Below are positions 1 to 64,000 of a DNA stretch of 64,000 nucleotides, in pieces. A program made the translations under genes and the position numbers. The notes below the pieces were generated by a model that searched no databases, had not been told where the DNA came from, and was given only the letters and a program-made list of their open reading frames with translations. Position 1 is the first letter of the stretch, and every line of letters begins with the position of its first letter. Origin of the DNA: an uncultured Methanosarcinales archaeon (lineage in GTDB: Archaea; Nanobdellota; Nanobdellia; Woesearchaeales; DSVV01); assembly GCA_964469935.1 (NCBI GenBank), contig CAYXZQ010000002.1:319-64318 (forward strand). The letters run 5' to 3'.

Positions 1-2
1 TG

Positions 3-1940
3 ATGAAAAAGCCGTTATGGAAGATGGCGCTCGACAGGCCTGACCTGACAAGACAGGTATTGGACTTCGCCAAGAGCTCAGGCGTGAAAAAGACAATGGA
101 CGTGGTCAAGAGCAGGCTCGATGTCTGGCACCTCTTAGGCTACAGCTCGGCAGGGACAGTGGTGAAAGCCGGAAAAAACGCAGCAGGCTTCGGAGTCGGA
201 GACAGGGTCGCATGCATAGGCTCTGGCTTTGCAAACCACGCAGAATACGTCGCAGTGCCGAAGACCTTGGCAGCAAAGATACCCAAAGGCCTGAAATTCG
301 ATGATGCAGCATTCTCAGGCATAGGATGCATAGCGCTCCAGTCAATTAGACAACTCCAGCCAGAACTCGGCGAAAACATAGTTGTCATAGGCCTCGGGCT
401 CATAGGACAGATGGTGGCCCAGCTTCTGAGAACGAACGGCTGCAGGGTCATAGGAATAGACATTGACAGGGAGAAGACAGGAAAGTCGTACATCGACGTG
501 GGAATAACCAGAAACACGATAAAGAACGTCATGAATGCAACAGACGGAGCAGGCGCAGACGGCGTCATAATAGCGGCATCCTCGAAAAAGAACCTTGTCA
601 ATGACGCATTCGACATGTGCAGGAAAAAAGGCAGGGTTGTCCTGTTAGGGATATGCAATCTTGATATAGACAGGCAGAAGATGTTCGAAAAAGAGCTGGA
701 CTTCAAAATATCCACTGCATTCGGCGCAGGCTCCCTGGACCAGATCTACGAGCAGGGAAAGGATTACCCTATAGAATACGCAAGATGGACATCCGGCAGG
801 AACCTAAAAGCAGTGCTTGAACTCCTCTCCACAAAGAAGCTCGACATAAGCGAGATGAAAAAAGATGTATTCGACATCAGCGACGCAAAGACAGCCTACA
901 GCGGACTCGAGCAGGGCAAGATGATGACTGCGCTCTTGAGGTACAACCCCAAAGACGAAGCGCAGACAATTGTCGCAGATGAAAAATTCAAAAAGACCGG
1001 AAAGATAAATGTCGCAATAATCGGCGCTGGCCAGTTCGTCAAAGGCTTCATACTGCCGGCGATAAAGAACATAAAGGAATTCTCACTATATGCAATAGCG
1101 ACAAAGAGCGGGCCGAATGCAAAGAAGCTCGCAAGAGAGCACGGGGCGAAGATCGCGAGCACGAGCTATGCAGACATCATAAACGACAAGAATGTCGACC
1201 TGGTGATTATAGGGACCAGGCACGACAGCCATGCAGAGATTGCAGCAGAGGCCCTAAAAAAGGGAAAGCACGTGTTCTCTGAGAAGCCCATGGCGATCGA
1301 TGAGAAATCCTTCCAGTCCCTGGCAAAAGAGATAAGGAAAACCGCCAGGACCTATGCATGCGGGTTCAACAGGAGGTACTCGCCTGTATTCAAAAAGATC
1401 AAATCAATGCTCTCAGACAAGTCTCCGATGATGGTAAATTACGTATTCAACAATACCTTCCTGCCTGCAGACCACTGGGTCAACCAGCCTGATGTGGGCG
1501 GGGGCAGAGTCATAGGCGAGGCATGCCATATCTTAGATATCTTCAATTTCCTCACAGGATCGAAGCCCGTGACAGTCCAGGCAAGCAAGCTCTCTTCAGC
1601 AGGCGGGAATGACGACAACAACATATCAGCTGTCATAAAATACCAGGACGGGAGCGTCTGCACTCTCACATACTCATGCATAGGAAGCTCGGGCGCTGAC
1701 AGGGAATCCTGCACCATAATCCAGGACGCAAACACAATCGAGATGAGCAGCCTCTCGAAGATAAGGCTCAATGGCAAGCCAGTCTACACAGGAAAGGCAG
1801 ACGAGGGCCACGCGCAGGAGATGAGGGAGCTTGCAGCACACCTCACAGGAAAAGAGAACTCGCTCGTGACAGCAGAGGAATGCATAACAGCCACAGAGAC
1901 GACATTCGGCATAGTGAAGTCTGCCAAGGGCAGCAGATAA
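3..1940 (+). CDS. Fused oxidoreductase with an N-terminal MDR/zinc-ADH-like Rossmann domain and a C-terminal Gfo/Idh/MocA domain. Probably a sugar-nucleotide dehydrogenase. The ORF abuts the window start, so the 5' end may be truncated.
   Basis: The first half has 'VVIGLGLIGQMVAQLL' (GxGxxG) and 'GDRVACIGSGFANHAEYVAV', typical of MDR dehydrogenases. The second half has 'KINVAIIGAGQF' and the 'SEKPMA' (EKP) motif of Gfo/Idh/MocA. The ADH GroES-like N-terminus looks shortened. The ORF begins at nt 3. Confidence 0.6.
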   Translation: MKKPLWKMALDRPDLTRQVLDFAKSSGVKKTMDVVKSRLDVWHLLGYSSAGTVVKAGKNAAGFGVGDRVACIGSGFANHAEYVAVPKTLAAKIPKGLKFDDAAFSGIGCIALQSIRQLQPELGENIVVIGLGLIGQMVAQLLRTNGCRVIGIDIDREKTGKSYIDVGITRNTIKNVMNATDGAGADGVIIAASSKKNLVNDAFDMCRKKGRVVLLGICNLDIDRQKMFEKELDFKISTAFGAGSLDQIYEQGKDYPIEYARWTSGRNLKAVLELLSTKKLDISEMKKDVFDISDAKTAYSGLEQGKMMTALLRYNPKDEAQTIVADEKFKKTGKINVAIIGAGQFVKGFILPAIKNIKEFSLYAIATKSGPNAKKLAREHGAKIASTSYADIINDKNVDLVIIGTRHDSHAEIAAEALKKGKHVFSEKPMAIDEKSFQSLAKEIRKTARTYACGFNRRYSPVFKKIKSMLSDKSPMMVNYVFNNTFLPADHWVNQPDVGGGRVIGEACHILDIFNFLTGSKPVTVQASKLSSAGGNDDNNISAVIKYQDGSVCTLTYSCIGSSGADRESCTIIQDANTIEMSSLSKIRLNGKPVYTGKADEGHAQEMRELAAHLTGKENSLVTAEECITATETTFGIVKSAKGSR

Positions 1941-1969
1941 GATATCGCCCCGGGCCATACATACAGAAA

Positions 1970-3124
1970 ATGAAGATACTGAGAACAATCGAGTCATTCT
2001 ACCCGTTCATGTCAGGCCCTGCGAACCAGGCATACATGATAAGCAAAAAGCTCAAAGAAAAAAACATCACTTCCAGCATCTTCACTACAGACTACATGGC
2101 AGAAGAGAGCCCTTCTGAAGAGGATTACAAGGGCATCCCTGTAAGGAGATTCAAAGTCAAAGGGAAGTATCTCAAATACCTCTACACGCCCCAGATGAAG
2201 AAGGAGTTCATCAGATTCCGCCCGGACCTCATCCACGCACACAACTACAGGAGCTACCAGTCGGAAATTGCATACAAGGCTGCAAAGAAGCTGAATATAC
2301 CGTTCATCATCAACACCCACGGAGGGCTGCATGGATATAAGAAAATAACCAAGGGCATAAATAAAGCCCCGTACTGGTCCTACGACCTGTTAGGCGGAAA
2401 AAAGCACATAAAAAGATCAGATGCAGTCATCGTCTCATCGAACCAGGAATATGGCGAGGCGCTTGATTTCGGCGTGAAAAAACAGAAGCTGCACATAGTC
2501 CCCATGGGAATCGATGTCAATGACTACAGGCAAAGCATGAGAAAAAGAGACGACGACAAGATAGTGCTTCTGTTCGTCGGGAGGATCACAAAGGACAGGA
2601 ACCTCATGCCCATGCTCGATGCATTGAAGGATATCGACGACAGAAGAATCAGCCTGAGGATTGTCGGCGGTGAGGCGAGGAGGACTGACACGGACAGGCT
2701 CGGGTATCTTGACCTGCTCAGGCACACAGCTGCAAAATACAGCATAAATTCCGTTTTCACAGGCCCGAAATACGGAAAAGACCTGATAAACGAATACATG
2801 AACGCAGACATCTTCATATACACCTCTGTCTGGGAGAACTTCGGCCAGACATTGCTCGAAGCAGGAGCAGCAGGGCTGCCGATAATATCGACAAGAGTAG
2901 GCATTGCAGAAGACATCGTGAAGGACGAAAAGACAGGCTATCTAGTCAGCCACAACAGCACAAAAGAGATTGAAAAGGCAGTACGCAACCTGATGGACAA
3001 GAAAAAAAGGGAATCATTCGGGAAGAGCATCCACACTCTCGTCAAAAAAGGCTTTGCCTGGGACAGAATCACTGAAAAATATGCAGGGATATACGAACAG
3101 GCACTCAAAAACAAAAAGAGATGA
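1970..3124 (+). CDS. Glycosyltransferase family 4 (GT-B, retaining).
   Basis: The C-terminal motif 'EAGAAGLPIISTRVGIAEDIVKDEKTGYLV' is the typical GT4 E-x7-E region. The likely start is MKILRT at 1970. The upstream ATG at 1880 would overlap the previous gene. Confidence 0.75.
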   Translation: MKILRTIESFYPFMSGPANQAYMISKKLKEKNITSSIFTTDYMAEESPSEEDYKGIPVRRFKVKGKYLKYLYTPQMKKEFIRFRPDLIHAHNYRSYQSEIAYKAAKKLNIPFIINTHGGLHGYKKITKGINKAPYWSYDLLGGKKHIKRSDAVIVSSNQEYGEALDFGVKKQKLHIVPMGIDVNDYRQSMRKRDDDKIVLLFVGRITKDRNLMPMLDALKDIDDRRISLRIVGGEARRTDTDRLGYLDLLRHTAAKYSINSVFTGPKYGKDLINEYMNADIFIYTSVWENFGQTLLEAGAAGLPIISTRVGIAEDIVKDEKTGYLVSHNSTKEIEKAVRNLMDKKKRESFGKSIHTLVKKGFAWDRITEKYAGIYEQALKNKKR

Positions 3125-3131
3125 GTCAGGT

Positions 3132-3926
3132 TCAATCTGAGAGCAGCCTTCTCAGCTTCTTCAGGTTCTCCAGGTCCTCTGAAAGATTCAGAAAATCTGT
3201 CTTGGGAGTCTCGAGCGAAAGATAAGCACCCTCAGGTATCTGCCTGACAAGATCCCTCAGGGGCAGGTCTCCATCGCCCAGGTGCAGATGCTCGTCTACT
3301 TCTTTATCCTTACGGCTGTCGCTGAGATGGAACATATAAGGTCCTAAACCCAGAAAATCCCTGACAAAACCCATCATCTTCCTACCATGCGTATTCGATG
3401 CTGCAATCGCGTGGCCGATGTCAAGGCAGAATCTGCAGCCGGTCTTGTCCAGCACTTCCCTGTATTCTTCAGGCCTGGATATGACCAGAGGGATATTGTT
3501 CTCATAGCCGACCGCAGGCACGTTCTCAAGTATGATGTCAAGCTCAGGCATAAGCCCTTTTATGTTCATGACAAGGCTCTGGACTGTGTCCCTTTTTTTG
3601 TCCAGCACATAGCCGGGGTGGAAGATTATCTTATTTTTGCCGAAAAACTCGGTGAATCTTCTGATTGTCTTGATTGATTCATGATAAGTCATGTCCTTGT
3701 TCGTGATGCTGAAGCCGTGGTTGTAGTTCGGGGCGTGGAATATGACAGGAACATCCTTAAGGATCTCAAGCTTAACGCCGTCGAACGTGCCGGGCACGAT
3801 GTAGAGCTCGACATAATCTATCAGCCCATCACTTAAGAATTCGGCAAGCTTCGTAAAGGACTCCTGGTTGATTGACCATATCTTGAGCCCCAGCCTGACC
3901 CTTTTTTCCCCCATTTGCAGGCCCAT
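3132..3926 (-). CDS. Sugar phosphate isomerase/epimerase, xylose-isomerase-like TIM-barrel family.
   Basis: Length and motifs ('IIFHPGY', 'CLDIGHA', a His/Asp/Glu metal-ligand pattern) fit the AP-endonuclease-2 / xylose-isomerase-like TIM fold. The likely start is MGLQMGEK (alternative starts at 3950 or 3914). Confidence 0.55.
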   Translation of the reverse strand: MGLQMGEKRVRLGLKIWSINQESFTKLAEFLSDGLIDYVELYIVPGTFDGVKLEILKDVPVIFHAPNYNHGFSITNKDMTYHESIKTIRRFTEFFGKNKIIFHPGYVLDKKRDTVQSLVMNIKGLMPELDIILENVPAVGYENNIPLVISRPEEYREVLDKTGCRFCLDIGHAIAASNTHGRKMMGFVRDFLGLGPYMFHLSDSRKDKEVDEHLHLGDGDLPLRDLVRQIPEGAYLSLETPKTDFLNLSEDLENLKKLRRLLSD

Positions 3927-4606
3927 TATCCTATTTCTCTGACCAGGCACAGCGCTTCTGCCAGTTCCAGCCCTGATTCCAGCCCCCTGAACTGCGCCAG
4001 TATCCTTATGCCTTCAAGAGACCTGGGATGGGGATATTTCCGAAGCTCGCTCCTGTACGCCTTCATCGCCTTAAGCTTGTCATCCATCACTCCTGAGATA
4101 TCATAGTAGACATTCGGCCTGAAGACACCCTCGCCCTTCGACTGCCATTCTGTAGACGACAAAGTCTCGAAAGCATATATCTTTTTCACGCAATCCTTTC
4201 CGATCGGCCTAGCCGCTGTCATAGCAGCCTGGAAGCAGATCCTGTGGTCGACATTGAGGTCGTTCTCGTGATGGGTATAGATTATGTCGGGCTTCAGCCT
4301 GTCCATGACCTTCTCGAACCCCTTGACAACATCCAGCAACGGCACTGAATCCATTGCATTGTCAGGGAAGTCGAGGAAGAAGACCTCTTTGAATCCCAGT
4401 ATGTCAGCTGCATTGAGGCTCTCCTTTCGCAGTCTCTTGACATCTGCATCAGTTTTCTTCCCCTTCGCGAGCCGTGAAGTCACGCCCTCGGCAGCGATTA
4501 AGCAGTAGACATCATCACCCGACCTGGCATGCCTCAGGACTGTCCCGCCTATGCCCAATACCTCGTCATCCGGATGGGCAGCTATGACAAGAACCTTATT
4601 CTTCAT
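3926..4606 (-). CDS. PIG-L/LmbE-family N-acetyl-sugar deacetylase.
   Basis: The N-terminus 'VLVIAAHPDDEVLGIGGT' carries the HPDDE zinc-binding signature of the PIG-L family. There is also a conserved 'HxxH'-like region 'YTHHENDLNVDH'. Confidence 0.8.
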   Translation of the reverse strand: MKNKVLVIAAHPDDEVLGIGGTVLRHARSGDDVYCLIAAEGVTSRLAKGKKTDADVKRLRKESLNAADILGFKEVFFLDFPDNAMDSVPLLDVVKGFEKVMDRLKPDIIYTHHENDLNVDHRICFQAAMTAARPIGKDCVKKIYAFETLSSTEWQSKGEGVFRPNVYYDISGVMDDKLKAMKAYRSELRKYPHPRSLEGIRILAQFRGLESGLELAEALCLVREIG

Positions 4607-5321
4607 CTTCCATCACCCTGATCGTCACATGAGCCCTGACTTTCCCGTCCGAAAGCCTGGATCTGGTGAACTCCAGCCTGAGCCTGCCTGATTCGATGAA
4701 CGCAGGCGGATAGCCCTCTCCGTCGAGCATCCTTATCCAGTCATGGACCTTCGATATTGCTGCGTCGTCAGGAATCCTGCTCTCTTCCGGTGTCCTCCTC
4801 TTGAACTCCACTACCTCGCCCTCCTGCTTTTTCGGGGCTGGTCTGTCCCTGATGATCTCTGCCATCATCCGAAATATGATGTCAGAGGCTTTCCTGAATA
4901 TCTCTTCAGCGCTGCCGCTCGAAAGGTCGAGGTCCCTCTTCATGTATATGTCGCCTGCATCAAGCCCCTTCACGACCCTTATCGCCGATATCTTTGTCCT
5001 GTATATCCCTCTTGAGATGAGGTTCTGCAGCGGGCTTCCCCCTCTTCCGAACGGAAGGTCTGTCATGTGGAAGACCACGCACTCGAAATCCTCGTAGACA
5101 TCTTTCGGGATTATCCATGACCAGTGCGGGAAGAACACGTACGCGGGGTTCAGCTCCCTGAGCCTCTCGGATGTCAGGTCTTCCTTCTTGTCTATCAGTG
5201 TCCAGCTGAAGCTGTCGAGCTCCTTCTCGATCTTGTTGAAATTGCCGACATTCCATGACTTGATCGTCACGACTACCATGTTCTTCTTGTCGTCTGTCAT
5301 TGTCTCATTTGCCATGCTCAT
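4596..5321 (-). CDS. Formyltransferase-fold protein (Fmt/ArnA N-domain-like). Putative sugar N-formyl or N-acyl transferase.
   Basis: 'VVFHMTDLPFGRGGSPLQNLISRGIYRTKISAIRVVKGLDAGDIYMK' aligns with the formyl_trans_N core 'H.SLLP..RG..P......G....G.T.H.....D.GDI'. The usual Asn two residues before the catalytic His is Val/Phe here. Confidence 0.6.
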   Translation of the reverse strand: MSMANETMTDDKKNMVVVTIKSWNVGNFNKIEKELDSFSWTLIDKKEDLTSERLRELNPAYVFFPHWSWIIPKDVYEDFECVVFHMTDLPFGRGGSPLQNLISRGIYRTKISAIRVVKGLDAGDIYMKRDLDLSSGSAEEIFRKASDIIFRMMAEIIRDRPAPKKQEGEVVEFKRRTPEESRIPDDAAISKVHDWIRMLDGEGYPPAFIESGRLRLEFTRSRLSDGKVRAHVTIRVMEDEE

Positions 5322-58527: not shown

Positions 58528-59690
58528 GAAAGAAATTACTGGAACTGCTCGCTTGCCCAAGATGCAGGTCCGGGCTCAGGCTCGACATCTTTGAGGAAGG
58601 AGACCAGGTCGAGAGCGGGCTTCTGACTTGCAGCTGCGGTGAATGGTTTCCTGTCATAAAAGGTGTGCCGCGCATCCTCATCGGCGACATGCGGGGGGAT
58701 TACTCGGGCTTCATCTCCGGGTTCAGGAAACATTTTCCAGAGGGAGTCCTGAAGAAGTCACATGCGGGCAAGGGCAGGACCCGACTGAAGAAGAGGACAA
58801 GCAACAGCTTCGGCCTGGAGTGGAAGAAGTACAGCAGGTACGGCTGGCTCGGGAGGGGAAAAGGAGAGAAGCTGGACATCTCTGATTACAGGTCCGCGCA
58901 TCTGGAGCACACCTGGGCCCACACTGTAGAGACTTTCTGGAGAAAGACTTTGCTGGAACCGGGAGAGGTCCGTGGAAAGCTTGTCCTTGACGTCGGCGTG
59001 GGAAACGGGAGATACGCACAGGCTTGCACGGACGCAGGGGCAGAGGTAGTGGGCATCGACCTGAGCGAAGCAGTCGATGTGGCATACGCAAACACGAAAG
59101 GAAAGGTCAACACGGTCCAGTGCGACATATTCAATCTTCCGTTCAAGGAAGGATGCTTTGATGTCATATACAGCATAGGAGTCCTTCATCACACGCCGGA
59201 TACGAAGGCTGCATTTGAATCAGTGCAGAAGCTTGTGAAAAAAAACGGCATAGTTTCCATACACCTGTATCACAAGGGAAATCCCATCTACGAATTCAAC
59301 GATCGACTTATAAGGCTCGTGACGACAAGGCTGTCCCTGGGCCTGCTTTGGTACCTCTGCTATGTCCCTGCTTTCCTGGGAAGGATGGCGTCAGTCTCGA
59401 GGTTCCTGTATGCCGGAGCCAACTCCCTCGTCGTCATCAGGAGCGACCATCACTTCAATTTCGACTGGTACTCGGCTCCGGTTGCTTACCACCACACGGA
59501 AACCGAGGTTGCCGGTTGGTTCAGGGGGCTTGGGTTCAGGAAGATAAGGGGCGATGATCCCTGCAGGTATGCGGGCTCTTATTTTGCAAAGATCTATCCT
59601 GGATTCACGAAGAATGCCGACGGTACGGTTAAGAGGTGGGCTGCGGGCCTGGTCCCGAGATGGGCCCTGACAGTAAGGGGAATAAGATGA
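58524..59690 (+). CDS. Trm112-like zinc-ribbon domain fused to a class I SAM methyltransferase.
   Basis: 'LLACPRCRSGL...LTCSCGEWFPVIKGVPRIL' (Trm112/DUF343-like). 'VLDVGVGNGRYA' is SAM motif I. ATGA overlap with asnB-like stop. Confidence 0.65.
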   Translation: MRKKLLELLACPRCRSGLRLDIFEEGDQVESGLLTCSCGEWFPVIKGVPRILIGDMRGDYSGFISGFRKHFPEGVLKKSHAGKGRTRLKKRTSNSFGLEWKKYSRYGWLGRGKGEKLDISDYRSAHLEHTWAHTVETFWRKTLLEPGEVRGKLVLDVGVGNGRYAQACTDAGAEVVGIDLSEAVDVAYANTKGKVNTVQCDIFNLPFKEGCFDVIYSIGVLHHTPDTKAAFESVQKLVKKNGIVSIHLYHKGNPIYEFNDRLIRLVTTRLSLGLLWYLCYVPAFLGRMASVSRFLYAGANSLVVIRSDHHFNFDWYSAPVAYHHTETEVAGWFRGLGFRKIRGDDPCRYAGSYFAKIYPGFTKNADGTVKRWAAGLVPRWALTVRGIR

Positions 59691-60412
59691 CCAGTTCCCA
59701 GGACAAGAAGAAAGAGAGGCAGGTCTTCGACAGGCTGAGCGAGGATGAATACAGCGAGGCGCATGAGGCGGATTACCAACGCCTGTATGCCAGGTTCTTT
59801 GATGGGTTTGAGGTCAGAAACAAGGAGCTGCTGGATATCGGCTGCGGTCCCGGTATAAATTCTGTCAGGCTTGCGAAGCTAGGCCTTAAGGTCACGGGCA
59901 TGGATCTGTCAGACAGGGCAGTCATCAAGGCCAGGGTATTGTCAAAAAAGGCCGGGGTTGATGTAAGGTTTATCGTAGGTGACGCAGAAAAGACGCACTT
60001 CAGGGACGATTCGTTTGATTTCGTGTTCTGCGGGGCTGTCCTGCATCACTTTCCGAATCTGAAAAAGATATCAAGGGAGATATACAGGGTCACAAAGCCG
60101 GGTGGTATGGTTTTGTCGTACGACCCAAACGCCCACCATCCCTATGGCTTGATAGTGCACAACGTGCTGAACAGGTTCATCAGGCTGAAATATTTCTCTC
60201 CGAATGAGAGGGCCCTCAGGGACAGGGACCTTTTTGTCCCGTTCTCAGAGGCAGGATTCAAAAACTTCAGGTTCTCGTCAATAACCATGCAGACTAAAAA
60301 GAAAGGCCTTGTCAGGAGATGCATCAGGAAGACAGCATATCGTGTCTCTGAGCTGCTTCTTCAGGGCCTTCATAAGAGGCCTTTTTTGGTGATGATCTGT
60401 GAAAAAGAATAA
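59687..60412 (+). CDS. Class I SAM-dependent methyltransferase.
   Basis: 'LLDIGCGPGINS' is motif I. 'FDFVFCGAVLHH'. ATGA overlap with the upstream gene. Confidence 0.75.
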   Translation: MTSSQDKKKERQVFDRLSEDEYSEAHEADYQRLYARFFDGFEVRNKELLDIGCGPGINSVRLAKLGLKVTGMDLSDRAVIKARVLSKKAGVDVRFIVGDAEKTHFRDDSFDFVFCGAVLHHFPNLKKISREIYRVTKPGGMVLSYDPNAHHPYGLIVHNVLNRFIRLKYFSPNERALRDRDLFVPFSEAGFKNFRFSSITMQTKKKGLVRRCIRKTAYRVSELLLQGLHKRPFLVMICEKE

Positions 60413-61358
60413 TAGGACGGCCTACCTGAAATTATTCCTCCGCCTTCTGTTTGCAATCATACTTGTAGCCATCCTGGTGGCCAATCTTGATGTCAGGCAG
60501 ATATATGATATCATAATCAAGATCAACAGCCTGGTTTTCTTGACACTGATAACTATCATAATAGGCACATTGGCGAGTGCACTGAGGCTCAAGGATCTCC
60601 TCAAGCCACATGATGTCAGCCTGTCCCTTCGCAATTCCGTAGACATTTACTTCATCGGGAAATTTTTCAGTGCATTTCTGCCCAGTACAGTCGGCGGTGA
60701 CATTTACAGATTCATGTGGCTGTCGAAGGATAACAGAAAGAGGCTGGGCTCATTCCTCGCTCTGCTGTTCGATAGGGCAAGCGGGGTGTTTGCCGCGTTG
60801 TTGATATCGGTCCTGTCAATGATATTCATCGGTTATTATAAGATAGTGGAATTGAATGCCTCCATAATGAGCGTCCTGATGCTTTTTCTGGCAGTGTTCG
60901 TGGTGTTGACTATCCTCGGGTTCAACCATAGGTTCACTGCGCTCGTTTCAGGGCTTCTCTTACGGATGAGATTGAGATACCTGTCAGAGAAGGCCGGCAT
61001 GGTAATGAAATCATTCCAGACATATAGGGATCACCCGAAAATACTGATGAGCTCGATAATCTATTCCATCATCTTCTATGTTTCGTCAATATTTCAGGTA
61101 TACATTATCTCACGAGCCTTGGGAATACGCCTTGACCTTGTTTTTTTCTTCCTGTTCATCCCGATAATCACCATCATATCCATGATTCCCGTGTCAATAA
61201 ATGCCCTGGGTATAAGGGAAGGTGCTTTCATCTACCTCTTCGGACAGGTTGGCGTCTCCCTGGAAGCTGCCTTTTCGATATCTATCATGACTTTCCTAAT
61301 TTCGCTCATCATCAGCGGATTCGGTGGCATCGTGTTCATTGCCAAGAAGAGGAGATGA
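60399..61358 (+). CDS. Flippase-like integral membrane protein of the lysylphosphatidylglycerol-synthase-TM/UPF0104 family. These are often GT2-associated.
   Basis: About 8 TM helices, 319 aa, no soluble domain. It is the last gene of a coupled GT2-GT4-asnB-MT-MT operon. Confidence 0.45.
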   Translation: MKKNNRTAYLKLFLRLLFAIILVAILVANLDVRQIYDIIIKINSLVFLTLITIIIGTLASALRLKDLLKPHDVSLSLRNSVDIYFIGKFFSAFLPSTVGGDIYRFMWLSKDNRKRLGSFLALLFDRASGVFAALLISVLSMIFIGYYKIVELNASIMSVLMLFLAVFVVLTILGFNHRFTALVSGLLLRMRLRYLSEKAGMVMKSFQTYRDHPKILMSSIIYSIIFYVSSIFQVYIISRALGIRLDLVFFFLFIPIITIISMIPVSINALGIREGAFIYLFGQVGVSLEAAFSISIMTFLISLIISGFGGIVFIAKKRR

Positions 61359-61407: not shown

Positions 61408-62532
61408 TCACAATCCCGGGCACTCTCTGCATACTTTCGGGGCGTTCGTAAGCAGCCGCTTCCTGAATCTCTTCAGTTTTTTTCCGTTCCATACCTCCTG
61501 GAAGGGCTGCTTGAGGATGTTGCCGTAGGAATATCCTTCACCTTCGTGGGAAAAGTCGCAGTGGCTCGAGACATTGCCGACCCAGTCTTCCCTGGGTAAC
61601 TTGTCGTTCGGAAGGTTTATCATCAGCTTCCACCACATTGTCGAGCAGTTGACCCTCTTCCTTCCTTTCGGCGGGAACCTGGGAGGGAAGACCCTCAGGC
61701 CGAGGGATCTCCCATATGCTACGGCCTCGTCAATCGACTTTATCAGCTCATGGTCCGTCTCCTGTATCACGTTGTCCTTTGAGCATATGGGGTGGTCTAC
61801 GAAATCTACAGGCACAAGGTATGAGAATATGACGTCGTCAGCCCCTATCTCCTTGCACGTGTCCATCAGGTCCTTGTACGTGTGGACATTGGACCTCATC
61901 GCTATGCAGTATATCCCTATCTTGAATCTTCTCTTGTACTTCTTGCGTAGCACGCTAAGCTTCTTGATGTTTCCGATTATCGTCTCCCATTTAGCGCCCC
62001 TGCGTATCTCTTCGAACTCTTTCGGGTCGCCGCTGTCAAGGTTCGTGTTCAGCCTGTTTATGCCGCTCTTTGCGAGGTGCTCCAGATTTTTCGTGACCTG
62101 CCGGTTCATGTTTGTCATGATCGAGCAGGTCATTTTGCTTTTCCTGACGTACTCTATCATGTCGAATATGTCCTTGTTGAGGAGAGGGTCCCCTGTCCCG
62201 CAGAGATGGACATGGGCGATCTTGGTCTTCTTCAGTTCGTCCAAGATCCTTTCAAAATCAGCCAGGGACAGCCTCATGGGCCAGTACGGCCTCTCTGTGA
62301 ATGGAGAATGCCAGAGGCAGTAGATGCATTTCTGCGTACACACGCTCTCAGTCACTATCGTTACGTATGTCGGGTCCCAGGGCACCTGGGTTATGTTCCT
62401 GTTTCTCATGAGCATGTATTTGACAGCGTTTGCGACCTGGCCTAAAGAATGCTCCCTGATGAATTTGATTCCTTCCTGGACGACATAGACATCCGTGTGT
62501 ATGGATGATTTGATATTGAACAGCCTAACCAT
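61408..62532 (-). CDS. Radical SAM enzyme with a C-terminal Cys-rich (SPASM/twitch-like) region.
   Basis: 'CTQKCIYC' (Cx3Cx2C). 'HLCGTGDPLL'. The C-terminus has additional Cys: 'RVNCSTMWW...SSHCDF...KVCRECPG'. Confidence 0.7.
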   Translation of the reverse strand: MVRLFNIKSSIHTDVYVVQEGIKFIREHSLGQVANAVKYMLMRNRNITQVPWDPTYVTIVTESVCTQKCIYCLWHSPFTERPYWPMRLSLADFERILDELKKTKIAHVHLCGTGDPLLNKDIFDMIEYVRKSKMTCSIMTNMNRQVTKNLEHLAKSGINRLNTNLDSGDPKEFEEIRRGAKWETIIGNIKKLSVLRKKYKRRFKIGIYCIAMRSNVHTYKDLMDTCKEIGADDVIFSYLVPVDFVDHPICSKDNVIQETDHELIKSIDEAVAYGRSLGLRVFPPRFPPKGRKRVNCSTMWWKLMINLPNDKLPREDWVGNVSSHCDFSHEGEGYSYGNILKQPFQEVWNGKKLKRFRKRLLTNAPKVCRECPGL

Positions 62533-62582
62533 TCAACCGGTCAAATCATGGAAATTTAATAAAGGTTTCGTTTCTACTTTCG

Positions 62583-64000
62583 CTAACAGAAATAGACATA
62601 GCTGCTCCCGTCCTTATAAGAATATCTCAACTGGCATTCGCTGTCTATGACAGCGATGGTGTCGCAGTTGAACCTGGATGGATATCTATGGTCGAGTATG
62701 AGCCAGATGTTCCCGCTCTTTTGTATCAAGTCCCTGAGTTCGGTGGAATTGATCCATGGCGTCCCTATCTGCTTGTCGGTGCCGGCCTCTTCATCCTCAG
62801 GGTTCTCCTGGTAGAGCTTGAAGCCTATCTCCATGATGTAATAATCGGGCTTCCTGAAGTAATAATCGGTCGCGGCTGGAGAATTCGTGATTATGGTATC
62901 ATTGCTGCTGTAATTGTTCTTTACGAAGTCGTTAATACCCCTATAATCCATCACCCTCATGATTGTCGCCTTATCGTAATATGTGCCTGAAATGTCTCCG
63001 AATGCGAAGGAATTCACGAAAAAAGAGGACATGACCACAAAGAGCAATATGAAAGACGCCAGGTACGTATTTCTGAAAAAGATGTTGTTTCTGAGCATCT
63101 GGTACGTGAAATACAGGCCTGCTGCAGCAGATATAAGGATCAACGGAAGCAGGTTTATTATGTACCTGTCTGATTTCGACCTAACGATGAATGTGAAAAG
63201 AAGAAAGCTCAGGACAAACACCGAATTTATGAAATTCAGCTCTTTTTTCCCGGAGATGATGCCGATGCCGACTGATACGGCGACAAGAAGCAGTATCAGG
63301 ACAGACACCTCTGAGAACAGGAACAGGAACGGCGCCTCGATGTTTGTTATCGCGAATATCTGGCTGCTCGCATCCTGGATGAATGTCGTCTTGGAAAATG
63401 CCTGGAACAGCACGAAGGCGAGCCCAAGGACGAAACAGCTTATCAGGTAAGGCAGGTCGCTTATGAATCTAGCTATGCTGCCCCTGTTCATGAAAGCATA
63501 ATAAAGGAAGCATGACAGCACAAGGAATACGCCTATGGAATGGCTTAGCAGGGTGAGCACCATGATGATGGGATAAGCCAGCTTGAATATTTTTTTCCCG
63601 TTTATAAACCCCTCATAGAATACATACACCGAGAGGATGCTCATCATCATGAAGAGGGAGTACATCCTTGCCTGCCTTGACCACGTGATGGCCCATGACG
63701 AGAACGCGATAAGGGCTGCCGAAAGTATGGCGACGTTCCTGTTGAACCATCTGCCAGCAATGAAGCATACGATCAGGATTGCGGCTGCTCCGAAAATCAC
63801 GCTCGGAATTCTTGCTGTGAGCTCTGATATCCCGAACAGGGAGAAAAACCCTGCGAGTAAATATGAATGCAGCAGTCCGCGAGCGTAGAACAGTCCGCTC
63901 TCGAAGACCGGCAGTCCGTGCTGGAGGATGCCTTTTGCTGCAAGAACGCTTATGAGCTCATCCCCTAGGAAGCCATAGAGGTTCAGCTTAAATGCCCTGA
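62583..64000 (-). CDS. GT-C-fold membrane glycosyltransferase (ArnT/PMT-like, GT83/GT39-type). The N-terminus runs off the window end.
   Basis: The reading frame stays open upstream of the track's GTG 'start' at 63800 all the way to nt 64000. It translates as '...GLPVFESGLFYARGLLHSYLLAGFFSLFGISELTARIPSVIFGAAAILIVCF', typical of the ArnT-like N-terminus. At least 10 TM helices. Confidence 0.6.
   Translation of the reverse strand, partial: RAFKLNLYGFLGDELISVLAAKGILQHGLPVFESGLFYARGLLHSYLLAGFFSLFGISELTARIPSVIFGAAAILIVCFIAGRWFNRNVAILSAALIAFSSWAITWSRQARMYSLFMMMSILSVYVFYEGFINGKKIFKLAYPIIMVLTLLSHSIGVFLVLSCFLYYAFMNRGSIARFISDLPYLISCFVLGLAFVLFQAFSKTTFIQDASSQIFAITNIEAPFLFLFSEVSVLILLLVAVSVGIGIISGKKELNFINSVFVLSFLLFTFIVRSKSDRYIINLLPLILISAAAGLYFTYQMLRNNIFFRNTYLASFILLFVVMSSFFVNSFAFGDISGTYYDKATIMRVMDYRGINDFVKNNYSSNDTIITNSPAATDYYFRKPDYYIMEIGFKLYQENPEDEEAGTDKQIGTPWINSTELRDLIQKSGNIWLILDHRYPSRFNCDTIAVIDSECQLRYSYKDGSSYVYFC

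What the first reader, a model, noticed from the sequence alone, without database searches (positions are those of the whole stretch)
1..64000. The whole window reads as one coherent N-glycosylation island for a complex, heavily decorated glycan
Seen in sequence: genes for making, decorating, flipping and transferring a glycan are tightly packed together with the probable acceptor proteins. They cover a nonulosonic-acid pathway with an acetamidino triad, a 6-deoxyhexose branch (Gmd plus Rmd-like), GT2/GT4/GT-C enzymes, GtrA, a Wzx-like flippase and two STT3/AglB paralogs. Decoration genes include three SAM methyltransferases, AsnB, a formyltransferase-like protein, a GNAT, PAPS supply (CysC and CysQ), a TagF-like phosphotransferase and a radical SAM enzyme. 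The acceptors are sequon-rich surface proteins. Inference: the encoded N-glycan would carry a terminal or internal acetamidino-nonulosonate, a 6-deoxyhexose, and methyl, amide, sulfate and possibly polyol-phosphate groups. No such composite system has been characterised as a unit, and sulfated nonulosonate-bearing archaeal N-glycans with dual OSTs are not a textbook case. The function of each of these as a glycan-decoration gene is inferred from neighbourhood.
Basis: partly seen in the sequence, partly recalled or inferred. Interest (0 to 1): 0.75.

Follow-up and report, generated by a model that had tools for sequence, protein, structure and literature searches.

The report
Woesearchaeal cell-surface glycosylation gene region
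This is a stretch of a DPANN (Woesearchaeota) archaeal chromosome unusually dense in protein-glycosylation genes, but it is three modules with different histories mixed with housekeeping genes, not one island for one glycan; its least ordinary feature is an oligosaccharyltransferase fused to a protein-folding enzyme.

Summary
About 37 of 54 protein genes are glycan-related. One encoded surface protein has 35 N-X-S/T sequons (z=9).

The "one coherent island, one glycan" reading is only partly supported. The organism is a Woesearchaeota (DPANN) archaeon. Window 1-50.1 kb is collinear with the closed chromosome OY970338.1. Three modules emerge:
- A (1-16.5 kb): a pseudaminic-type nonulosonate cassette. 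Identity at 4-fold synonymous sites is 0.75 against 0.40 elsewhere, so it was exchanged recently.
- B (16.5-50.1 kb): a lineage-conserved core holding both AglBs, lipid-phosphate-sugar synthases, GtrA and surface proteins. It is interrupted by nadE, nadC, kae1/tsaD, relA/spoT and tRNA-Trp, and carries a two-gene GMD/Rmd insertion.
- C (50.1-64 kb): a replaceable cassette (CysC, CysQ, GTs, AsnB, methyltransferases).

Corrections:
- The "TagF-like" gene belongs to the Tannerella nonulosonate-transferase family.
- The 2-epimerase is a non-hydrolysing WecB.
- No sulfotransferase or ATP sulfurylase is present.
- Dual AglBs, sulfated glycans, acetamidino sugars and nonulosonates all have archaeal precedents.

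The most novel feature is AglB#1, which is fused to a parvulin. Close homologues carry FKBP or VKOR-type thioredoxin domains instead.

The parts
3..1940 (+). Module A: ADH_zinc_N + GFO/IDH/MocA fused oxidoreductase (5' end cut by the window; 692 aa in the relative)
   Evidence: Pfam; NCBIfam. 97.5% aa identity to OY970338.1.
1880..3124 (+). Module A: GT4 glycosyltransferase
   Evidence: Pfam Glycos_transf_1, 105 bits.
3132..3950 (-). Module A: xylose-isomerase-like TIM barrel (sugar isomerase/epimerase-like)
   Evidence: Pfam AP_endonuc_2.
3926..4606 (-). Module A: PIG-L family de-N-acetylase
   Evidence: Pfam PIG-L, 105.6 bits.
4596..5321 (-). Module A: formyltransferase-like protein
   Evidence: Pfam Formyl_trans_C_2, 79.7 bits; the N-terminal domain match is weak. 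NCBIfam ArnA/fmt matches are weak.
5318..5782 (-). Module A: GNAT N-acetyltransferase (best match PseH, below cutoff)
   Evidence: 53.7 bits, cutoff 93.
5769..6845 (-). Module A: NeuB-family nonulosonate synthase #1
   Evidence: Pfam NeuB, 294 bits. NeuB_NnaB 327 and PseI 288 bits, both below cutoff.
6860..7903 (-). Module A: NeuB-family synthase #2 (33% identical to #1)
7900..8580 (-). Module A: CMP-nonulosonate cytidylyltransferase (best match PseF)
   Evidence: 170 bits, cutoff 206.
8655..9953 (+). Module A: WbuX/PseA-type N-acetyl sugar amidotransferase (acetamidino triad)
   Evidence: NCBIfam TIGR03573, 331 bits, cutoff 203.
9950..10573 (+). Module A: HisH-like glutamine amidotransferase (triad)
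   Evidence: Pfam GATase. The overlapping 393-aa minus-strand ORF has no family hit.
10566..11351 (+). Module A: HisF-like cyclase/ammonia-channel subunit (triad)
   Evidence: Pfam His_biosynth, 195 bits.
11386..12513 (-). Module A: PseC aminotransferase
   Evidence: NCBIfam PseC, 484 bits, cutoff 423.
12514..13812 (-). Module A: BFO_1060-family GT-B protein.
   Evidence: NCBIfam NF046086, 299 bits, cutoff 200. Glyphos_transf only E=1.4e-3. The family founder was tested genetically (PMC5420450).
13814..14863 (-). Module A: PseB-like UDP-GlcNAc 4,6-dehydratase
   Evidence: Pfam Polysacc_synt_2, 304 bits. PseB 356 bits, cutoff 408.
14941..16473 (-). Module A: divergent MOP/Wzx-type flippase (12 TM). 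It is the last gene of the high-identity block.
   Evidence: No direct HMM hit. 2003 homologues; 49 of 50 sampled match Polysacc_synt_3.
16570..17517 (-). Unknown 315-aa protein (HD-like motifs)
   Evidence: No family or PDB hit. 62% identical to the relative's orthologue.
17582..18829 (-). Module B: GT4 glycosyltransferase
18768..19880 (-). Module B: WecB, non-hydrolysing UDP-GlcNAc 2-epimerase (not NeuC/LegG)
   Evidence: NCBIfam wecB, 421 bits, cutoff 210; NeuC only 98 bits.
19877..20467 (-). Module B: DUF2304 small membrane protein (true start probably near 20203)
   Evidence: The orthologue is 108 aa.
20221..20898 (-). Module B: GT2 polyprenyl-phosphate sugar synthase-like protein (best matches PpgS and AglJ)
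   Evidence: 165 bits, below cutoff.
20911..21765 (-). Module B: UbiA-family protein resembling decaprenyl-phosphate phosphoribosyltransferase
   Evidence: NCBIfam NF008977, 222 bits, cutoff 234.
21885..22829 (+). Housekeeping: NAD synthase (nadE)
   Evidence: Pfam, 185 bits.
22822..23844 (-). Housekeeping: quinolinate phosphoribosyltransferase (nadC)
   Evidence: Pfam, 210 bits.
24409..26333 (+). Two-gene insertion absent from the relative: GMD (24409-25470) and an Rmd-like SDR (25467-26333)
   Evidence: GMD equivalog, 531 bits, cutoff 415. The SDR has no specific model, and Fcl scores only 25 bits. No counterpart in OY970338.1.
26320..27441 (-). Module B: DUF362 protein, found next to GtrA in the window and all four related AglB-parvulin contexts examined
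27392..27868 (-). Module B: GtrA-family small membrane protein (lipid-phosphate-sugar translocation)
   Evidence: Pfam, 73.5 bits.
27943..28620 (+). Module B: GT2, AglJ/Dol-P-hexose-synthase-like
   Evidence: AglJ 126 bits, below cutoff.
28641..29279 (-). Module B: SAM methyltransferase
29304..31187 (-). Module B: 627-aa polytopic membrane protein with a C-terminal soluble domain. It lies immediately downstream of AglB#1 and is a candidate GT-C.
   Evidence: 9 or more TM. A PMT_2 protein occupies the same slot in more distant relatives. hhalign to the AglB profile is only 57% probability. No PDB hit. The structure model failed.
31192..34452 (-). Module B: AglB#1 (STT3) fused to a C-terminal parvulin PPIase (residues 987-1085)
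   Evidence: Pfam STT3, 146 bits, plus Rotamase, 71 bits. Motifs D143, D268-x-D270, E414 and WWDFG625. PDB parvulin/PrsA hits at E=2e-12.
34636..36411 (+). Module B: membrane-anchored protein with two GILT/DsbA-like thioredoxin-fold domains and 21 Cys; the active-site position reads CPYG twice
   Evidence: It lies divergently next to the AglB-parvulin gene in 5 of 5 contexts.
36486..37664 (-). Housekeeping: Kae1/TsaD (true start probably near 37478)
   Evidence: Pfam, 267 bits.
37440..39473 (+). Regulatory/housekeeping: long RelA/SpoT homologue (HD, synthetase, TGS, ACT)
   Evidence: Conserved at this position in relatives.
39470..40504 (-). Geranylgeranyl-reductase-family flavoprotein (candidate polyprenol/dolichol reductase)
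   Evidence: NCBIfam GG-red-SF, 143 bits, cutoff 159. It lies directly upstream of AglB in other Woesearchaeota.
40695..42005 (+). Surface protein with Ig-like FixG_C/NPCBM_assoc domains, a signal peptide and a C-terminal TM; only 1 sequon
42002..44218 (+). Multi-pass membrane/surface protein with 13 sequons (z=3.9)
44278..44427 (+). tRNA-Trp(CCA) with an 80-nt intron. The 16-nt 3' end is repeated at 44511-44526.
   Evidence: Rfam, 47.6 bits. Anticodon read by hand. Repeat found. ARAGORN missed the gene.
44577..46508 (-). S-layer-like surface glycoprotein candidate with a signal peptide, a C-terminal TM anchor and 35 sequons
   Evidence: z=9.1. All 35 sequons are kept in the 86%-identical orthologue and 29 of 35 in the 65%-identical one. 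The orthologues carry Pfam AF2028_C.
46595..46936 (-). DUF192 protein, overlapping the AglB#2 stop codon and always next to AglB#2
46927..49383 (-). AglB#2: a divergent STT3 paralogue (24% identical to AglB#1), called as 813 aa elsewhere
   Evidence: Pfam STT3, 59 bits. Only 5 close homologues were found. Clade-invariant D-T-N, SxxE and WWDKG motifs.
49475..50107 (+). Sugar-1-phosphate nucleotidyltransferase; the last gene collinear with the relative
50108..50698 (-). Module C: CysC (APS kinase)
   Evidence: 255 bits, cutoff 163. A 57-codon remnant sits at the same junction in the relative.
50777..51571 (-). Module C: CysQ (PAP phosphatase)
   Evidence: TIGR01331, 243 bits, cutoff 229.
51900..54485 (+). 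Module C: 861-aa protein with three ~157-aa repeats (a 471-bp tandem repeat at 53037-53923); not sequon-enriched
   Evidence: No family or PDB hit.
54547..55476 (+). Module C: GT2 with two C-terminal TM segments; resembles the ArnC/PgfS/AglJ lipid-phosphate-sugar synthases
55473..56657 (+). Module C: GT4 glycosyltransferase
56557..58527 (+). Module C: AsnB-type glutamine-dependent amidotransferase
   Evidence: TIGR01536, 527 bits, cutoff 267. The best match is the EPS-associated amidotransferase.
58476..60412 (+). Module C: two SAM methyltransferases (58476-59690, with a Trm112-like N-terminus; 59636-60412)
60399..61358 (+). Module C: LPG_synthase_TM 'flippase-like' membrane protein
   Evidence: Pfam, 128 bits. 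TIGR00374, 71 bits, cutoff 43.
61408..62532 (-). Module C: radical SAM/SPASM enzyme with no specific assignment
62583..63998 (-). Module C: PMT_2-family GT-C glycosyltransferase (5' end cut by the window)
   Evidence: Pfam PMT_2, 49 bits.

Best explanation
The window is nearly all of a 64.5-kb contig from a Woesearchaeota (DPANN) archaeon. It encodes a cell-surface glycoprotein biogenesis region made of three modules, not one island for one glycan.

Module A (1-16.5 kb) makes and uses a CMP-activated 5,7-diamino nonulosonate of the pseudaminic type.
- Backbone enzymes: PseB-like, PseC, GNAT, two NeuB synthases and a PseF-like cytidylyltransferase.
- N-acyl tailoring: the WbuX/HisH/HisF acetamidino triad, a PIG-L deacetylase and a formyltransferase-like protein.
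- Use of the sugar: a BFO_1060-family nonulosonate transferase, a GT4 and a divergent Wzx flippase.
- The module has been exchanged recently between lineages.

Module B (16.5-50.1 kb) is a core conserved in this lineage.
- It encodes WecB, a UbiA phosphoribosyltransferase-like enzyme, AglJ/PpgS-like GT2 lipid-phosphate-sugar synthases, GtrA, a candidate GT-C and a methyltransferase.
- AglB#1 is fused to an extracytoplasmic parvulin and lies beside a GILT/DsbA-like protein.
- A rare second AglB lies with DUF192 next to an S-layer-like protein that has 35 conserved sequons.
- Housekeeping genes and a GMD/Rmd insertion interrupt the module.

Module C (50.1-64 kb) is a replaceable decoration cassette. 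It holds CysC/CysQ, a GT2, a GT4, AsnB, two methyltransferases, a flippase-like protein, a radical SAM enzyme and a GT-C.

Inferred mechanism:
1. Glycans are built on dolichyl phosphate at the cytoplasmic face.
2. They are flipped across the membrane.
3. The AglBs transfer them to N-X-S/T sites of the surface proteins.
4. Outside the cell they are extended from lipid-phosphate sugars by GT-C enzymes, while the fused parvulin assists folding.

What is shown: family membership, synteny, sequon density and conservation, and the recombination signal. What is inferred: which sugars reach which glycan, and the division of labour between the two AglBs.
For: - Taxonomy and identity: the closest AglB#1 homologues are named Woesearchaeota, Nanoarchaeota or Nanobdellota. 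The best genome is OY970338.1, 'Candidatus Woesearchaeota', a 1.84-Mb chromosome.
- Families.
- Collinearity: window 1-50,094 aligns with relative 693,029-641,373.
- Module A boundary: nucleotide identity is 81-96% up to 16 kb and 67-80% beyond, with one 87.5% bin inside relA/spoT. Identity at 4-fold degenerate sites is 0.75 pooled for genes 3-16473 and 0.40 for genes 16570-50107.
- GMD/Rmd has no counterpart in the relative.
- Module C is replaced in the relative by Wzx, Wzy_C, GT4 and methyltransferase genes, and a cysC remnant is left at the junction.
- The core neighbourhood GILT | AglB-parvulin | GT-C recurs in 5 of 5 contexts. A methyltransferase, a GT2 and GtrA follow in most of them.
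- AglB#2-DUF192-AF2028_C protein recurs in 3 of 3 contexts.
- AglB catalytic motifs are present.
- Sequons: 35 in 643 aa, z=9.1. Sequon Asn is conserved 35/35 against 20/28 for non-sequon Asn.
- Flippase assignment.
- Nonulosonate transferase family.
Against: - No glycan structure, expression data or enzymology exists for this lineage.
- PseG is missing. PseB, PseH, PseI and PseF all score below their equivalog cutoffs, so the exact nonulosonate is uncertain. The BFO_1060-family protein could be a PseG substitute rather than a transferase.
- No classical initiating phosphoglycosyltransferase is in the window.
- The 627-aa 'GT-C' assignment rests on topology and position only.
- The parvulin lacks the second active-site His (GYEIVKL).
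- The GILT-like domains read CPYG, not CxxC.
- AglB#2 has D-T-N where AglB#1 has D-T-D.
- The high identity of module A is established against one genome only.
Confidence: 0.65

Rival explanations
1. The whole 64 kb is one functionally coherent N-glycosylation island whose genes together build a single glycan. That glycan would carry acetamidino-nonulosonate, 6-deoxyhexose, methyl, amide, sulfate and polyol-phosphate groups, and would be transferred by two OSTs.
For: Glycan genes are extremely dense. AglBs and a sequon-rich acceptor lie in the same region. Window 1-50 kb stays together in a second genome.
Against: - The parts have three different histories.
- GMD/Rmd and the CysC-to-GT-C cassette are absent from the relative.
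- Five housekeeping genes and a tRNA gene are interspersed.
- No sulfotransferase is present.
- The 'TagF-like' gene is in a nonulosonate-transferase family.
- Several separate lipid-phosphate-sugar, flippase and GT-C sets imply several products.
Confidence: 0.12
2. Only the AglB-proximal genes serve N-glycosylation. The nonulosonate module and the variable cassette would feed other glycoconjugates, such as O-linked glycans, a Wzx/Wzy-type surface polysaccharide or glycolipids.
For: - Module A has its own Wzx, GT4 and transferase and moves independently of the core.
- The founding BFO_1060 enzyme acts in O-glycosylation.
- The equivalent cassette in the relative contains Wzx and Wzy_C, typical of polymerised polysaccharide or O-oligosaccharyltransferases.
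- The AsnB is closest to EPS-associated amidotransferases.
Against: - Archaeal N-glycan pathways also use Wzx-like flippases and carry nonulosonates, acetamidino sugars, sulfate and rhamnose (PMC11407970).
- No Wzy or O-OTase is in this window.
- The only obvious mass acceptor nearby is an N-sequon-rich protein.
Confidence: 0.3
3. AglB#2 is not a second general OST. It would be either a specialised enzyme dedicated to the adjacent S-layer-like protein, or a catalytically altered paralogue with another role.
For: - The clade is tiny: 5 close homologues among 5.8 billion proteins.
- It is always linked to DUF192 and the AF2028_C surface protein.
- Clade-invariant substitutions separate it from AglB#1: D-T-N for D-T-D and WWDKG for WWDFG.
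Against: - The remaining catalytic residues (D of IDPY, E of SxxE, WWD, and a Lys/Arg-type pocket) are conserved under purifying selection.
- Synteny alone cannot show substrate specificity.
- Multiple functional AglBs in one genome are known (PMC3703281).
Confidence: 0.3
4. The region is a horizontally acquired mobile genomic island.
For: - A 16-nt repeat of the tRNA-Trp 3' end lies 99 bp downstream of the tRNA.
- Module A shows recent exchange.
- Close WecB homologues occur in Patescibacteria.
Against: - No integrase, transposase or plasmid/phage gene is present.
- GC content is even, at 0.46-0.53.
- 50 kb is collinear with a related chromosome at background divergence and includes housekeeping genes.
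Confidence: 0.04

Closest known systems
aglB-anchored N-glycosylation gene clusters of Archaea (Haloferax volcanii agl cluster; Methanococcus maripaludis agl genes)
   Same: - AglB is surrounded by GT2/GT4 enzymes, a Wzx-like flippase, methyltransferases, nucleotidyltransferases and a Dol-P-sugar synthase for a post-transfer step.
- The main acceptor is an S-layer-type glycoprotein.
- A conserved major cluster sits beside a variable second cluster (PMC11407970).
- M. maripaludis has an acetamidino sugar in its N-glycan.
   Different: - The lineage is DPANN.
- AglB#1 carries a fused parvulin and has a GILT/DsbA-like neighbour.
- A second, very divergent AglB sits beside the acceptor gene.
- Housekeeping genes are interspersed.
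- None of the halophile or methanogen Agl equivalog models is met.
Pseudaminic acid pathway and its glycosylation islands (Campylobacter/Helicobacter PseBCHGIF with PseA; Tannerella forsythia Pse5Am7Gra cluster with transferase Tanf_01245)
   Same: - PseC passes its equivalog cutoff.
- PseB-, PseH-, PseI- and PseF-like enzymes are present.
- The cluster holds a WbuX/PseA-type amidotransferase for an acetamidino group and a BFO_1060-family transferase.
   Different: - No PseG is present.
- There are two NeuB paralogues, both scoring higher on NeuB than on PseI.
- An extra PIG-L deacetylase and a formyltransferase-like protein are present.
- The host is archaeal and the likely target is N-linked rather than O-linked.
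Legionaminic-acid N-glycans of Halorubrum sp. PV6 / virus HRPV-1
   Same: An archaeal N-glycan carrying a 5,7-diamino nonulosonate, including an N-formyl derivative. This is taken from the reference list seen and from my own knowledge.
   Different: The best-supported enzymes here are Pse-type. The only 2-epimerase is a non-hydrolysing WecB, so no LegG/NeuC is present.
Gtr (GtrA/GtrB/GtrV) and AglD/AglR/AglS-type extracytoplasmic glycan modification; mycobacterial DPPR synthase and PpgS lipid-linked donors
   Same: GtrA, polyprenyl-phosphate-sugar synthase-like GT2 enzymes, a UbiA phosphoribosyltransferase-like enzyme and GT-C proteins are clustered.
   Different: All scores fall below the equivalog cutoffs. 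The GT-C next to AglB#1 has no recognisable family. The sugars are unknown.
Eukaryotic OST with thioredoxin-fold subunits (Ost3/Ost6, TUSC3/MagT1), and Gram-positive PrsA foldase
   Same: An oligosaccharyltransferase is physically coupled to a folding catalyst on the non-cytoplasmic side. The parvulin domain is homologous to PrsA and SurA. Close AglB homologues carry a VKOR-type thioredoxin domain instead.
   Different: Here the coupling is a gene fusion to AglB itself. The eukaryotic comparison comes from my own knowledge and was not tested here. The parvulin lacks the second catalytic-site His.

Membership tests
STT3/AglB/PglB oligosaccharyltransferase (AglB#1, 31192-34452) | STT3 transmembrane domain above the Pfam gathering score | tested here: met
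   PF02516, 145.6 bits, cutoff 24.5.
STT3/AglB/PglB oligosaccharyltransferase (AglB#1) | Two acidic DXD-type motifs in the TM region, the TIXE/SVSE Glu, and the WWDYG motif (criteria from PMC3703281) | tested here: met
   D143 (IDPYYYY), D268-T-D270, E414 (TVAE) and WWDFG625-629. All are invariant across 19 homologues.
STT3/AglB/PglB oligosaccharyltransferase (AglB#1 and AglB#2) | DK (DXXKXXX[MI]) or MI (MXXIXXX[IVW]) motif forming the Ser/Thr pocket | tested here: inconclusive
   AglB#1 reads M747xxK750xxxW754. AglB#2 reads M668xxR671xxxV675 (K in one homologue). Both are hybrids of the two consensus forms. A structure would be needed to decide.
STT3/AglB/PglB oligosaccharyltransferase (AglB#2, 46927-49383) | STT3 domain plus catalytic motifs | tested here: inconclusive
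   PF02516, 59.3 bits, cutoff 24.5. D173 (IDPY), E399 (SISE) and WWDKG557 are present. The second motif is D266-T-N268, invariant in all 5 clade members.
Pseudaminic acid biosynthesis pathway (PseB, C, H, G, I, F) | PseC aminotransferase equivalog | tested here: met
   TIGR03588, 483.9 bits, cutoff 423.5.
Pseudaminic acid biosynthesis pathway | PseB, PseH, PseI and PseF equivalogs | tested here: inconclusive
   Each is the best or second-best match but falls below its cutoff: PseB 356/408, PseH 54/93, PseI 288/340 (NeuB_NnaB scores higher, at 327), PseF 170/206.
Pseudaminic acid biosynthesis pathway | PseG UDP-sugar hydrolase | tested here: not met
   No PseG or Glyco_tran_28 hit in any ORF. 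The only GT-B candidate is the BFO_1060-family protein.
Legionaminic/neuraminic acid pathway | Hydrolysing 2-epimerase (NeuC/LegG) | tested here: not met
   The only 2-epimerase is a non-hydrolysing WecB: 421 bits (cutoff 210) against NeuC at 98 bits (cutoff 236).
Acetamidino-forming triad (WbuX/PseA amidotransferase + HisH-like + HisF-like) | All three families present and adjacent | tested here: met
   TIGR03573, 331 bits, cutoff 203. GATase 85 bits and His_biosynth 195 bits. The genes overlap at 9950-9953 and 10566-10573.
   PF04464, 18.1 bits, cutoff 22.1, E=1.4e-3. The protein instead passes NF046086 BFO_1060 (299 bits, cutoff 200).
MOP/Wzx flippase (14941-16473) | Polysacc_synt-type domain and 12 TM segments | tested here: inconclusive
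   No direct hit. 12 TM predicted. Full-length homologues at E<=1e-27 hit Polysacc_synt_3 in 49 of 50 cases. Membership is supported by transitivity.
GDP-6-deoxyhexose pathway (GMD + RMD) | GMD equivalog, plus a 4-reductase | tested here: inconclusive
   GMD is met (531 bits, cutoff 415). The downstream SDR overlaps GMD by 4 bp but matches no specific reductase model. GDP-fucose synthase scores only 25 bits.
PAPS-dependent glycan sulfation system | ATP sulfurylase, APS kinase, sulfotransferase and PAP phosphatase | tested here: not met
   CysC and CysQ pass their cutoffs. No ATP sulfurylase or sulfotransferase family hit was found in any ORF. The rest of the genome is not available.
Archaeal S-layer glycoprotein (44577-46508) | Secreted, membrane-anchored, abundant lattice protein with N-glycosylation | not testable with these tools
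   The signal peptide, C-terminal TM and 35 conserved sequons are shown. Lattice formation and abundance are unknown. No S-layer family hit was found, and the model had pLDDT 33.
Mobile genomic island | Integrase or transposase, atypical composition, absence from related genomes | tested here: not met
   No such genes. GC is 0.46-0.53. 50 kb is collinear with OY970338.1. Only a 16-nt tRNA-end repeat was found.

The most novel reading that the evidence does not exclude
In this Woesearchaeal lineage, N-glycosylation would be physically coupled to extracytoplasmic protein folding. AglB is fused at its external C-terminus to a foldase:
- a parvulin here and in 20 of the 120 closest homologues;
- FKBP in 2 of them;
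- a VKOR-type CxxC thioredoxin domain in 4.

In the parvulin clade, AglB is always paired with a divergently encoded double GILT/DsbA-like membrane protein. This would be a prokaryotic 'glycosylate-and-fold' machine, analogous to eukaryotic OST with its Ost3/6-TUSC3 thioredoxin subunits.

A second, rare AglB paralogue (D-T-N, WWDKG), together with DUF192, would be dedicated to the adjacent S-layer-like protein with 35 sequons. It might use a different donor, for example the recombining nonulosonate-bearing glycan.
Probability: 0.3. Interest if true: 0.7.

Novelty: new variant of a known kind. Interest (0 to 1): 0.48.

Why it matters
DPANN archaea live attached to other cells, so their surface glycoproteins are the likely interface with hosts. 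Almost nothing is known about their glycosylation.

This region gives a concrete parts list:
- a conserved AglB core;
- a recombining nonulosonate cassette;
- a swappable decoration cassette that could generate surface diversity between close relatives, as described for Haloferax.

The recurrent fusion of AglB to three unrelated kinds of folding catalyst is gene-fusion evidence that glycosylation and folding are coupled outside the cell in an organism without an ER. That idea can be tested with recombinant proteins. The individual sugar pathways themselves are ordinary.

Tried and rejected
- Exact look-ups of window proteins (NeuB#1 and P0001) in the contig index found nothing, so the source contig itself could not be fetched.
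- PDB sequence searches for the 315-aa, 861-aa, 510-aa and 627-aa proteins, and for a 4-sequence profile of the 627-aa family, gave nothing significant.
- A metagenome scan with the 627-aa protein found no relatives.
- hhalign of the 627-aa protein against the AglB profile gave 57% probability. With a 4-sequence profile it gave 87%, over only 85 C-terminal columns. BLASTP against the positional PMT_2 protein in L012 showed no similarity. GT-C membership therefore stays unproven.
- Single-sequence AlphaFold models were unusable: 627-aa protein pLDDT 41, S-layer candidate pLDDT 33. No fold search was run.
- BLASTP of the 510-aa protein against the relative's annotated Wzx found nothing. The link was made later through homologues.
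- A literature search for 'AF2028' returned only antibody catalogue numbers.
- Searches for STT3/AglB together with parvulin or PPIase found no paper.
- The M. maripaludis acetamidino paper (PMC3347211) is not held.
- I considered a bacterial origin because of the long RelA/SpoT and TsaD. I rejected it after the AglB homologue names, the intron-containing tRNA and the collinearity with a Woesearchaeota chromosome.
- I rejected the 393-aa minus-strand ORF at 10049-11230 in favour of the HisH and HisF genes on the plus strand.

Full report
**What the sequence is.** I called 54 protein genes from non-overlapping longest ORFs and scanned all of them against Pfam, and the key ones against NCBIfam. 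The closest homologues of the larger STT3 protein are named Candidatus Woesearchaeota, Nanoarchaeota or Nanobdellota. The identical protein sits on a 64,495-bp NCBI contig, so the window is essentially that whole contig. A genome scan found one close genome, OY970338.1: [quoted passage not shown], 1,838,930 bp. An intron-containing tRNA fits an archaeal origin. I first suspected a bacterium because of the long RelA/SpoT and TsaD-family genes. Both lie at the same place in three related archaeal contigs, so they belong to this genome.

**Checking the observation.**
- Nonulosonate genes: two NeuB synthases, a PseF-like cytidylyltransferase, a PseB-like dehydratase and PseC (484 bits, cutoff 423). 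Also a GNAT, a formyltransferase-like protein and a PIG-L deacetylase.
- Acetamidino triad: WbuX (331 bits, cutoff 203) followed by overlapping HisH-like and HisF-like genes.
- 6-deoxyhexose branch: GMD (531 bits, cutoff 415) followed by an SDR that overlaps it by 4 bp.
- Transferases and membrane proteins: three GT2, three GT4, GtrA, a PMT_2 GT-C and two STT3 proteins.
- Decoration genes: three SAM methyltransferases, AsnB, CysC and CysQ (both above cutoff) and a radical SAM/SPASM enzyme.
- The 12-TM protein at 14941-16473 has no direct family hit. A full scan of 1.84 billion representatives gave 2003 homologues, and 49 of 50 sampled match Polysacc_synt_3. "Wzx-like flippase" therefore holds by transitivity.

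About 37 of 54 protein genes are glycan-related, far more than chance would give.

**Corrections to the observation.**
- The "TagF-like phosphotransferase" (12514-13812, between PseC and PseB) gives only E=1.4e-3 to Glyphos_transf. It passes the NCBIfam BFO_1060 glycosyltransferase model (299 bits, cutoff 200). BFO_1060 is the Tannerella forsythia enzyme family (Tanf_01245/TFUB4_00887). Those enzymes are required for adding the terminal Pse or Leg derivative to the O-glycan, and the authors noted their TagB-like domain (PMC5420450). The polyol-phosphate inference therefore falls.
- The 2-epimerase is a non-hydrolysing WecB (421 bits, cutoff 210), not NeuC/LegG.
- No PseG is present. PseB, PseH, PseI and PseF all score below their equivalog cutoffs. 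The sugar is best described as a Pse-type 5,7-diamino nonulosonate of uncertain exact identity.
- No sulfotransferase or ATP sulfurylase is in the window.
It also missed a UbiA enzyme close to decaprenyl-phosphate phosphoribosyltransferase (222 bits, cutoff 234) and tRNA-Trp at 44278-44427.

**Acceptor proteins.** The protein at 44577-46508 has a signal peptide and a C-terminal TM anchor with a basic tail. It carries 35 N-X-S/T sequons in 643 residues (z=9.1 against shuffles). All 35 are conserved in position in the 86%-identical orthologue. In the 65%-identical orthologue, which has 39 sequons in total, 29 of the 35 are conserved. Sequon Asn is kept in 35/35 and 30/35 cases, against 20/28 and 19/28 for other Asn residues. 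The orthologues carry Pfam AF2028_C. This is a convincing heavily N-glycosylated surface protein, although "S-layer" itself is an inference. The 738-aa membrane protein at 42002-44218 is moderately enriched (13 sequons, z=3.9). The Ig-like protein at 40695-42005 (1 sequon) and the 861-aa repeat protein (7 sequons, z=0.1) are not enriched.

**The two oligosaccharyltransferases.**
- AglB#1 (31192-34452, 1086 aa) has D143, D268-x-D270, E414 and WWDFG, all invariant in 19 homologues. After a Ser/Thr-rich linker it carries a C-terminal parvulin domain that is homologous to archaeal parvulins, PrsA and SurA (E=2e-12). The second active-site His is replaced by Glu.
- AglB#2 (46927-49383) is 24% identical to AglB#1. 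It belongs to a very small clade, with 5 close homologues found. Clade-invariant motifs are D-T-N, SxxE and WWDKG.
- AglB#2 is always followed by an overlapping DUF192 gene and lies next to the sequon-rich protein.
- Several AglB paralogues in one genome are already known from Archaeoglobus fulgidus (PMC3703281).

**Comparative genomics.** Four overlapping loci tile 632,109-696,158 of OY970338.1. Window 1-50,094 is collinear with 693,029-641,373 of that chromosome. Three points break the "single island" picture.
1. Nucleotide identity is 81-96% for window 1-16 kb and 67-80% beyond, apart from one 87.5% bin inside relA/spoT. Identity at 4-fold degenerate sites is 0.75 pooled for the 16 genes up to 16473, against 0.40 (near saturation) for all 25 orthologue pairs from 16570 to 50107. 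The nonulosonate module was therefore exchanged between these lineages long after they diverged. By contrast, the S-layer-like protein (86% aa identity, 0.38 at synonymous sites) and RelA/SpoT (91%, 0.42) are simply under purifying selection.
2. The GMD/Rmd pair is a clean two-gene insertion between convergent genes and is absent from the relative.
3. Window 50.1-64 kb (CysC, CysQ, repeat protein, GT2, GT4, AsnB, two methyltransferases, flippase-like protein, rSAM, GT-C) has no counterpart at that site. The relative carries DUF4330, Wzx, four methyltransferases, two GT4 and Wzy_C there. It also keeps a 57-codon cysC remnant at the junction (44% identity, E=1e-10).

**The conserved core.** In five contexts (AglB#1 identity 100-52%) the following order recurs: GILT/DsbA-like gene, then divergently AglB-parvulin, then a polytopic membrane protein. 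That membrane protein has no recognisable family in the three closest contexts and is PMT_2 in the two more distant ones. A methyltransferase, a GT2 and GtrA follow in most contexts but not all. DUF362 is nearby in all five. UbiA-GT2-DUF2304, nadE/nadC, kae1, relA/spoT and the GG-reductase gene recur nearby in most of them. In Woesearchaeota whose AglB lacks the parvulin, the GG-reductase-family gene lies directly upstream of AglB and a GT2 follows it directly. DUF2304, DUF192, FixG_C proteins, Trm112 and AsnB also recur in the better-covered of those two contexts. The three small GT2 enzymes all resemble polyprenyl-phosphate-sugar synthases (AglJ, PpgS, ArnC/PgfS), though below cutoffs.

**Most likely mechanism.**
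- Shown: family membership, gene order, conservation, sequon selection and the recombination signal.
- Inferred, step 1: UDP-GlcNAc is converted by the PseB-like enzyme, PseC and the GNAT. It is condensed by a NeuB enzyme and CMP-activated. Its N-acyl groups are remodelled by the deacetylase, the formyltransferase-like protein and the amidotransferase triad.
- Inferred, step 2: the BFO_1060-family enzyme adds the nonulosonate to a dolichol-linked oligosaccharide built by GT2 and GT4 enzymes.
- Inferred, step 3: the Wzx-like protein flips the oligosaccharide, and an AglB transfers it to Asn.
- Inferred, step 4: outside the cell, lipid-phosphate sugars made by the AglJ/PpgS-like GT2 enzymes and the UbiA enzyme are translocated with GtrA or the flippase-like protein. 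GT-C proteins then add them to the glycan.
- Inferred, step 5: methyl, amide, 6-deoxyhexose and possibly sulfate groups vary between strains through the cassette and the insertion.
- Whether module A and module C feed the N-glycan or other glycoconjugates is open. I give the latter about 0.3.

**Comparison with known systems, and novelty.** The kind of system is known. These are aglB-anchored gene clusters with a conserved part and a variable part. Archaeal N-glycans already include sulfated sugars, rhamnose, an acetamidino-mannuronic acid and legionaminic acid (PMC11407970). The Pse-type pathway, the acetamidino triad, GMD/RMD and CysC/CysQ are ordinary modules.

What departs from described systems is the architecture around the OSTs. 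Among the 120 closest AglB#1 homologues, 20 carry a parvulin and 2 an FKBP domain. Four carry a CxxC domain, and one of these, when tested, is homologous to the VKOR-associated thioredoxin domain (E=5.5e-14). That makes three unrelated folding catalysts fused to the same external terminus. I found no paper describing this, but the library does not cover all journals. I rate the locus a new variant of a known kind, of moderate interest.

**Dead ends.** Single-sequence structure models failed, with pLDDT 41 and 33. PDB and profile searches did not place the 627-aa, 315-aa or 861-aa proteins. The GT-C assignment of the 627-aa protein remains positional.

Noticed in passing
window 44278-44427 (+); repeat at 44412-44427 and 44511-44526: An intron-containing tRNA (80-nt intron in the anticodon loop). 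Read by hand, the anticodon is CCA, so it is tRNA-Trp, and the intron has GAUGA box-C-like motifs. ARAGORN missed it. The 16-nt 3' end AATCCCAGCGTCCCCA is repeated exactly 99 bp downstream, like an att scar. The segment 44428-44558 does not align with the relative.
   Followed up: partly
window 31192-34452 and homologues P0001-P0120: AglB homologues in Woesearchaeota carry three unrelated C-terminal folding domains. 20 of the top 120 have a parvulin, 2 have FKBP_C (P0090, P0094) and 4 have a CxxC domain (P0015, P0017, P0024, P0026). The P0017 domain matches the VKOR-associated thioredoxin domain 3KP8 at E=5.5e-14.
   Followed up: partly
window 37440-39473: A full-length RelA/SpoT homologue (HD, synthetase, TGS, ACT) in a DPANN archaeon. 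It is conserved at the same position in three relatives. It is 91% identical at the protein level although synonymous sites are saturated (0.42).
   Followed up: partly
window 1-16500 vs L006/L007: The nonulosonate module has much lower synonymous divergence from OY970338.1 than the rest of the region (0.75 vs 0.40 identity at 4-fold sites). Identity is mosaic within the module (0.53-0.88), which suggests repeated recombination.
   Followed up: yes
L003 9075-9245: A 57-codon remnant of cysC (44% identity to the window's CysC residues 139-195, E=1e-10). It lies in the relative between the nucleotidyltransferase gene and DUF4330, exactly where the window has an intact cysC.
   Followed up: yes
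window 34636-36411: The GILT/DsbA-like protein has two GILT domains whose active-site position reads CPYG (a single Cys) rather than CxxC. It also has one CSEC motif between the domains and 21 cysteines in all. AglB#1's external domain has four invariant cysteines (C676, C734, C823, C832).
   Followed up: partly
window 18768-19880: The closest WecB homologues include Patescibacteria (CPR) bacteria at 73-74% identity, alongside Woesearchaeota at 69-83%. This suggests gene sharing across domains between the two groups of ultra-small organisms.
   Followed up: no
window 51900-54485 (repeat 53037-53923): An 861-aa protein with three ~157-aa repeats resembling a carbohydrate-binding module. Two copies form a 471-bp tandem repeat at 84% identity. 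It is the first gene of the variable cassette operon and has no family or PDB match.
   Followed up: partly
window 20911-21765, 20221-20898, 19877-20467: A UbiA enzyme resembling decaprenyl-phosphate phosphoribosyltransferase lies next to a PpgS-like GT2 and DUF2304. This pairing is reminiscent of the mycobacterial arabinogalactan lipid-linked donors, here in an archaeon. It is conserved in three related contexts.
   Followed up: partly
window 39470-40504; L013 3386-4474; L014 6798-7922: A geranylgeranyl-reductase-family gene lies directly upstream of AglB in other Woesearchaeota and close to it here. It is a candidate polyprenol/dolichol reductase.
   Followed up: no
window 16570-17517 and 23774-24331: Two small cytoplasmic proteins with HD-like His/Asp motifs and no family match. 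Both are conserved in the relative (62% and 72% identity). The first sits at the boundary of the recombining module.
   Followed up: no
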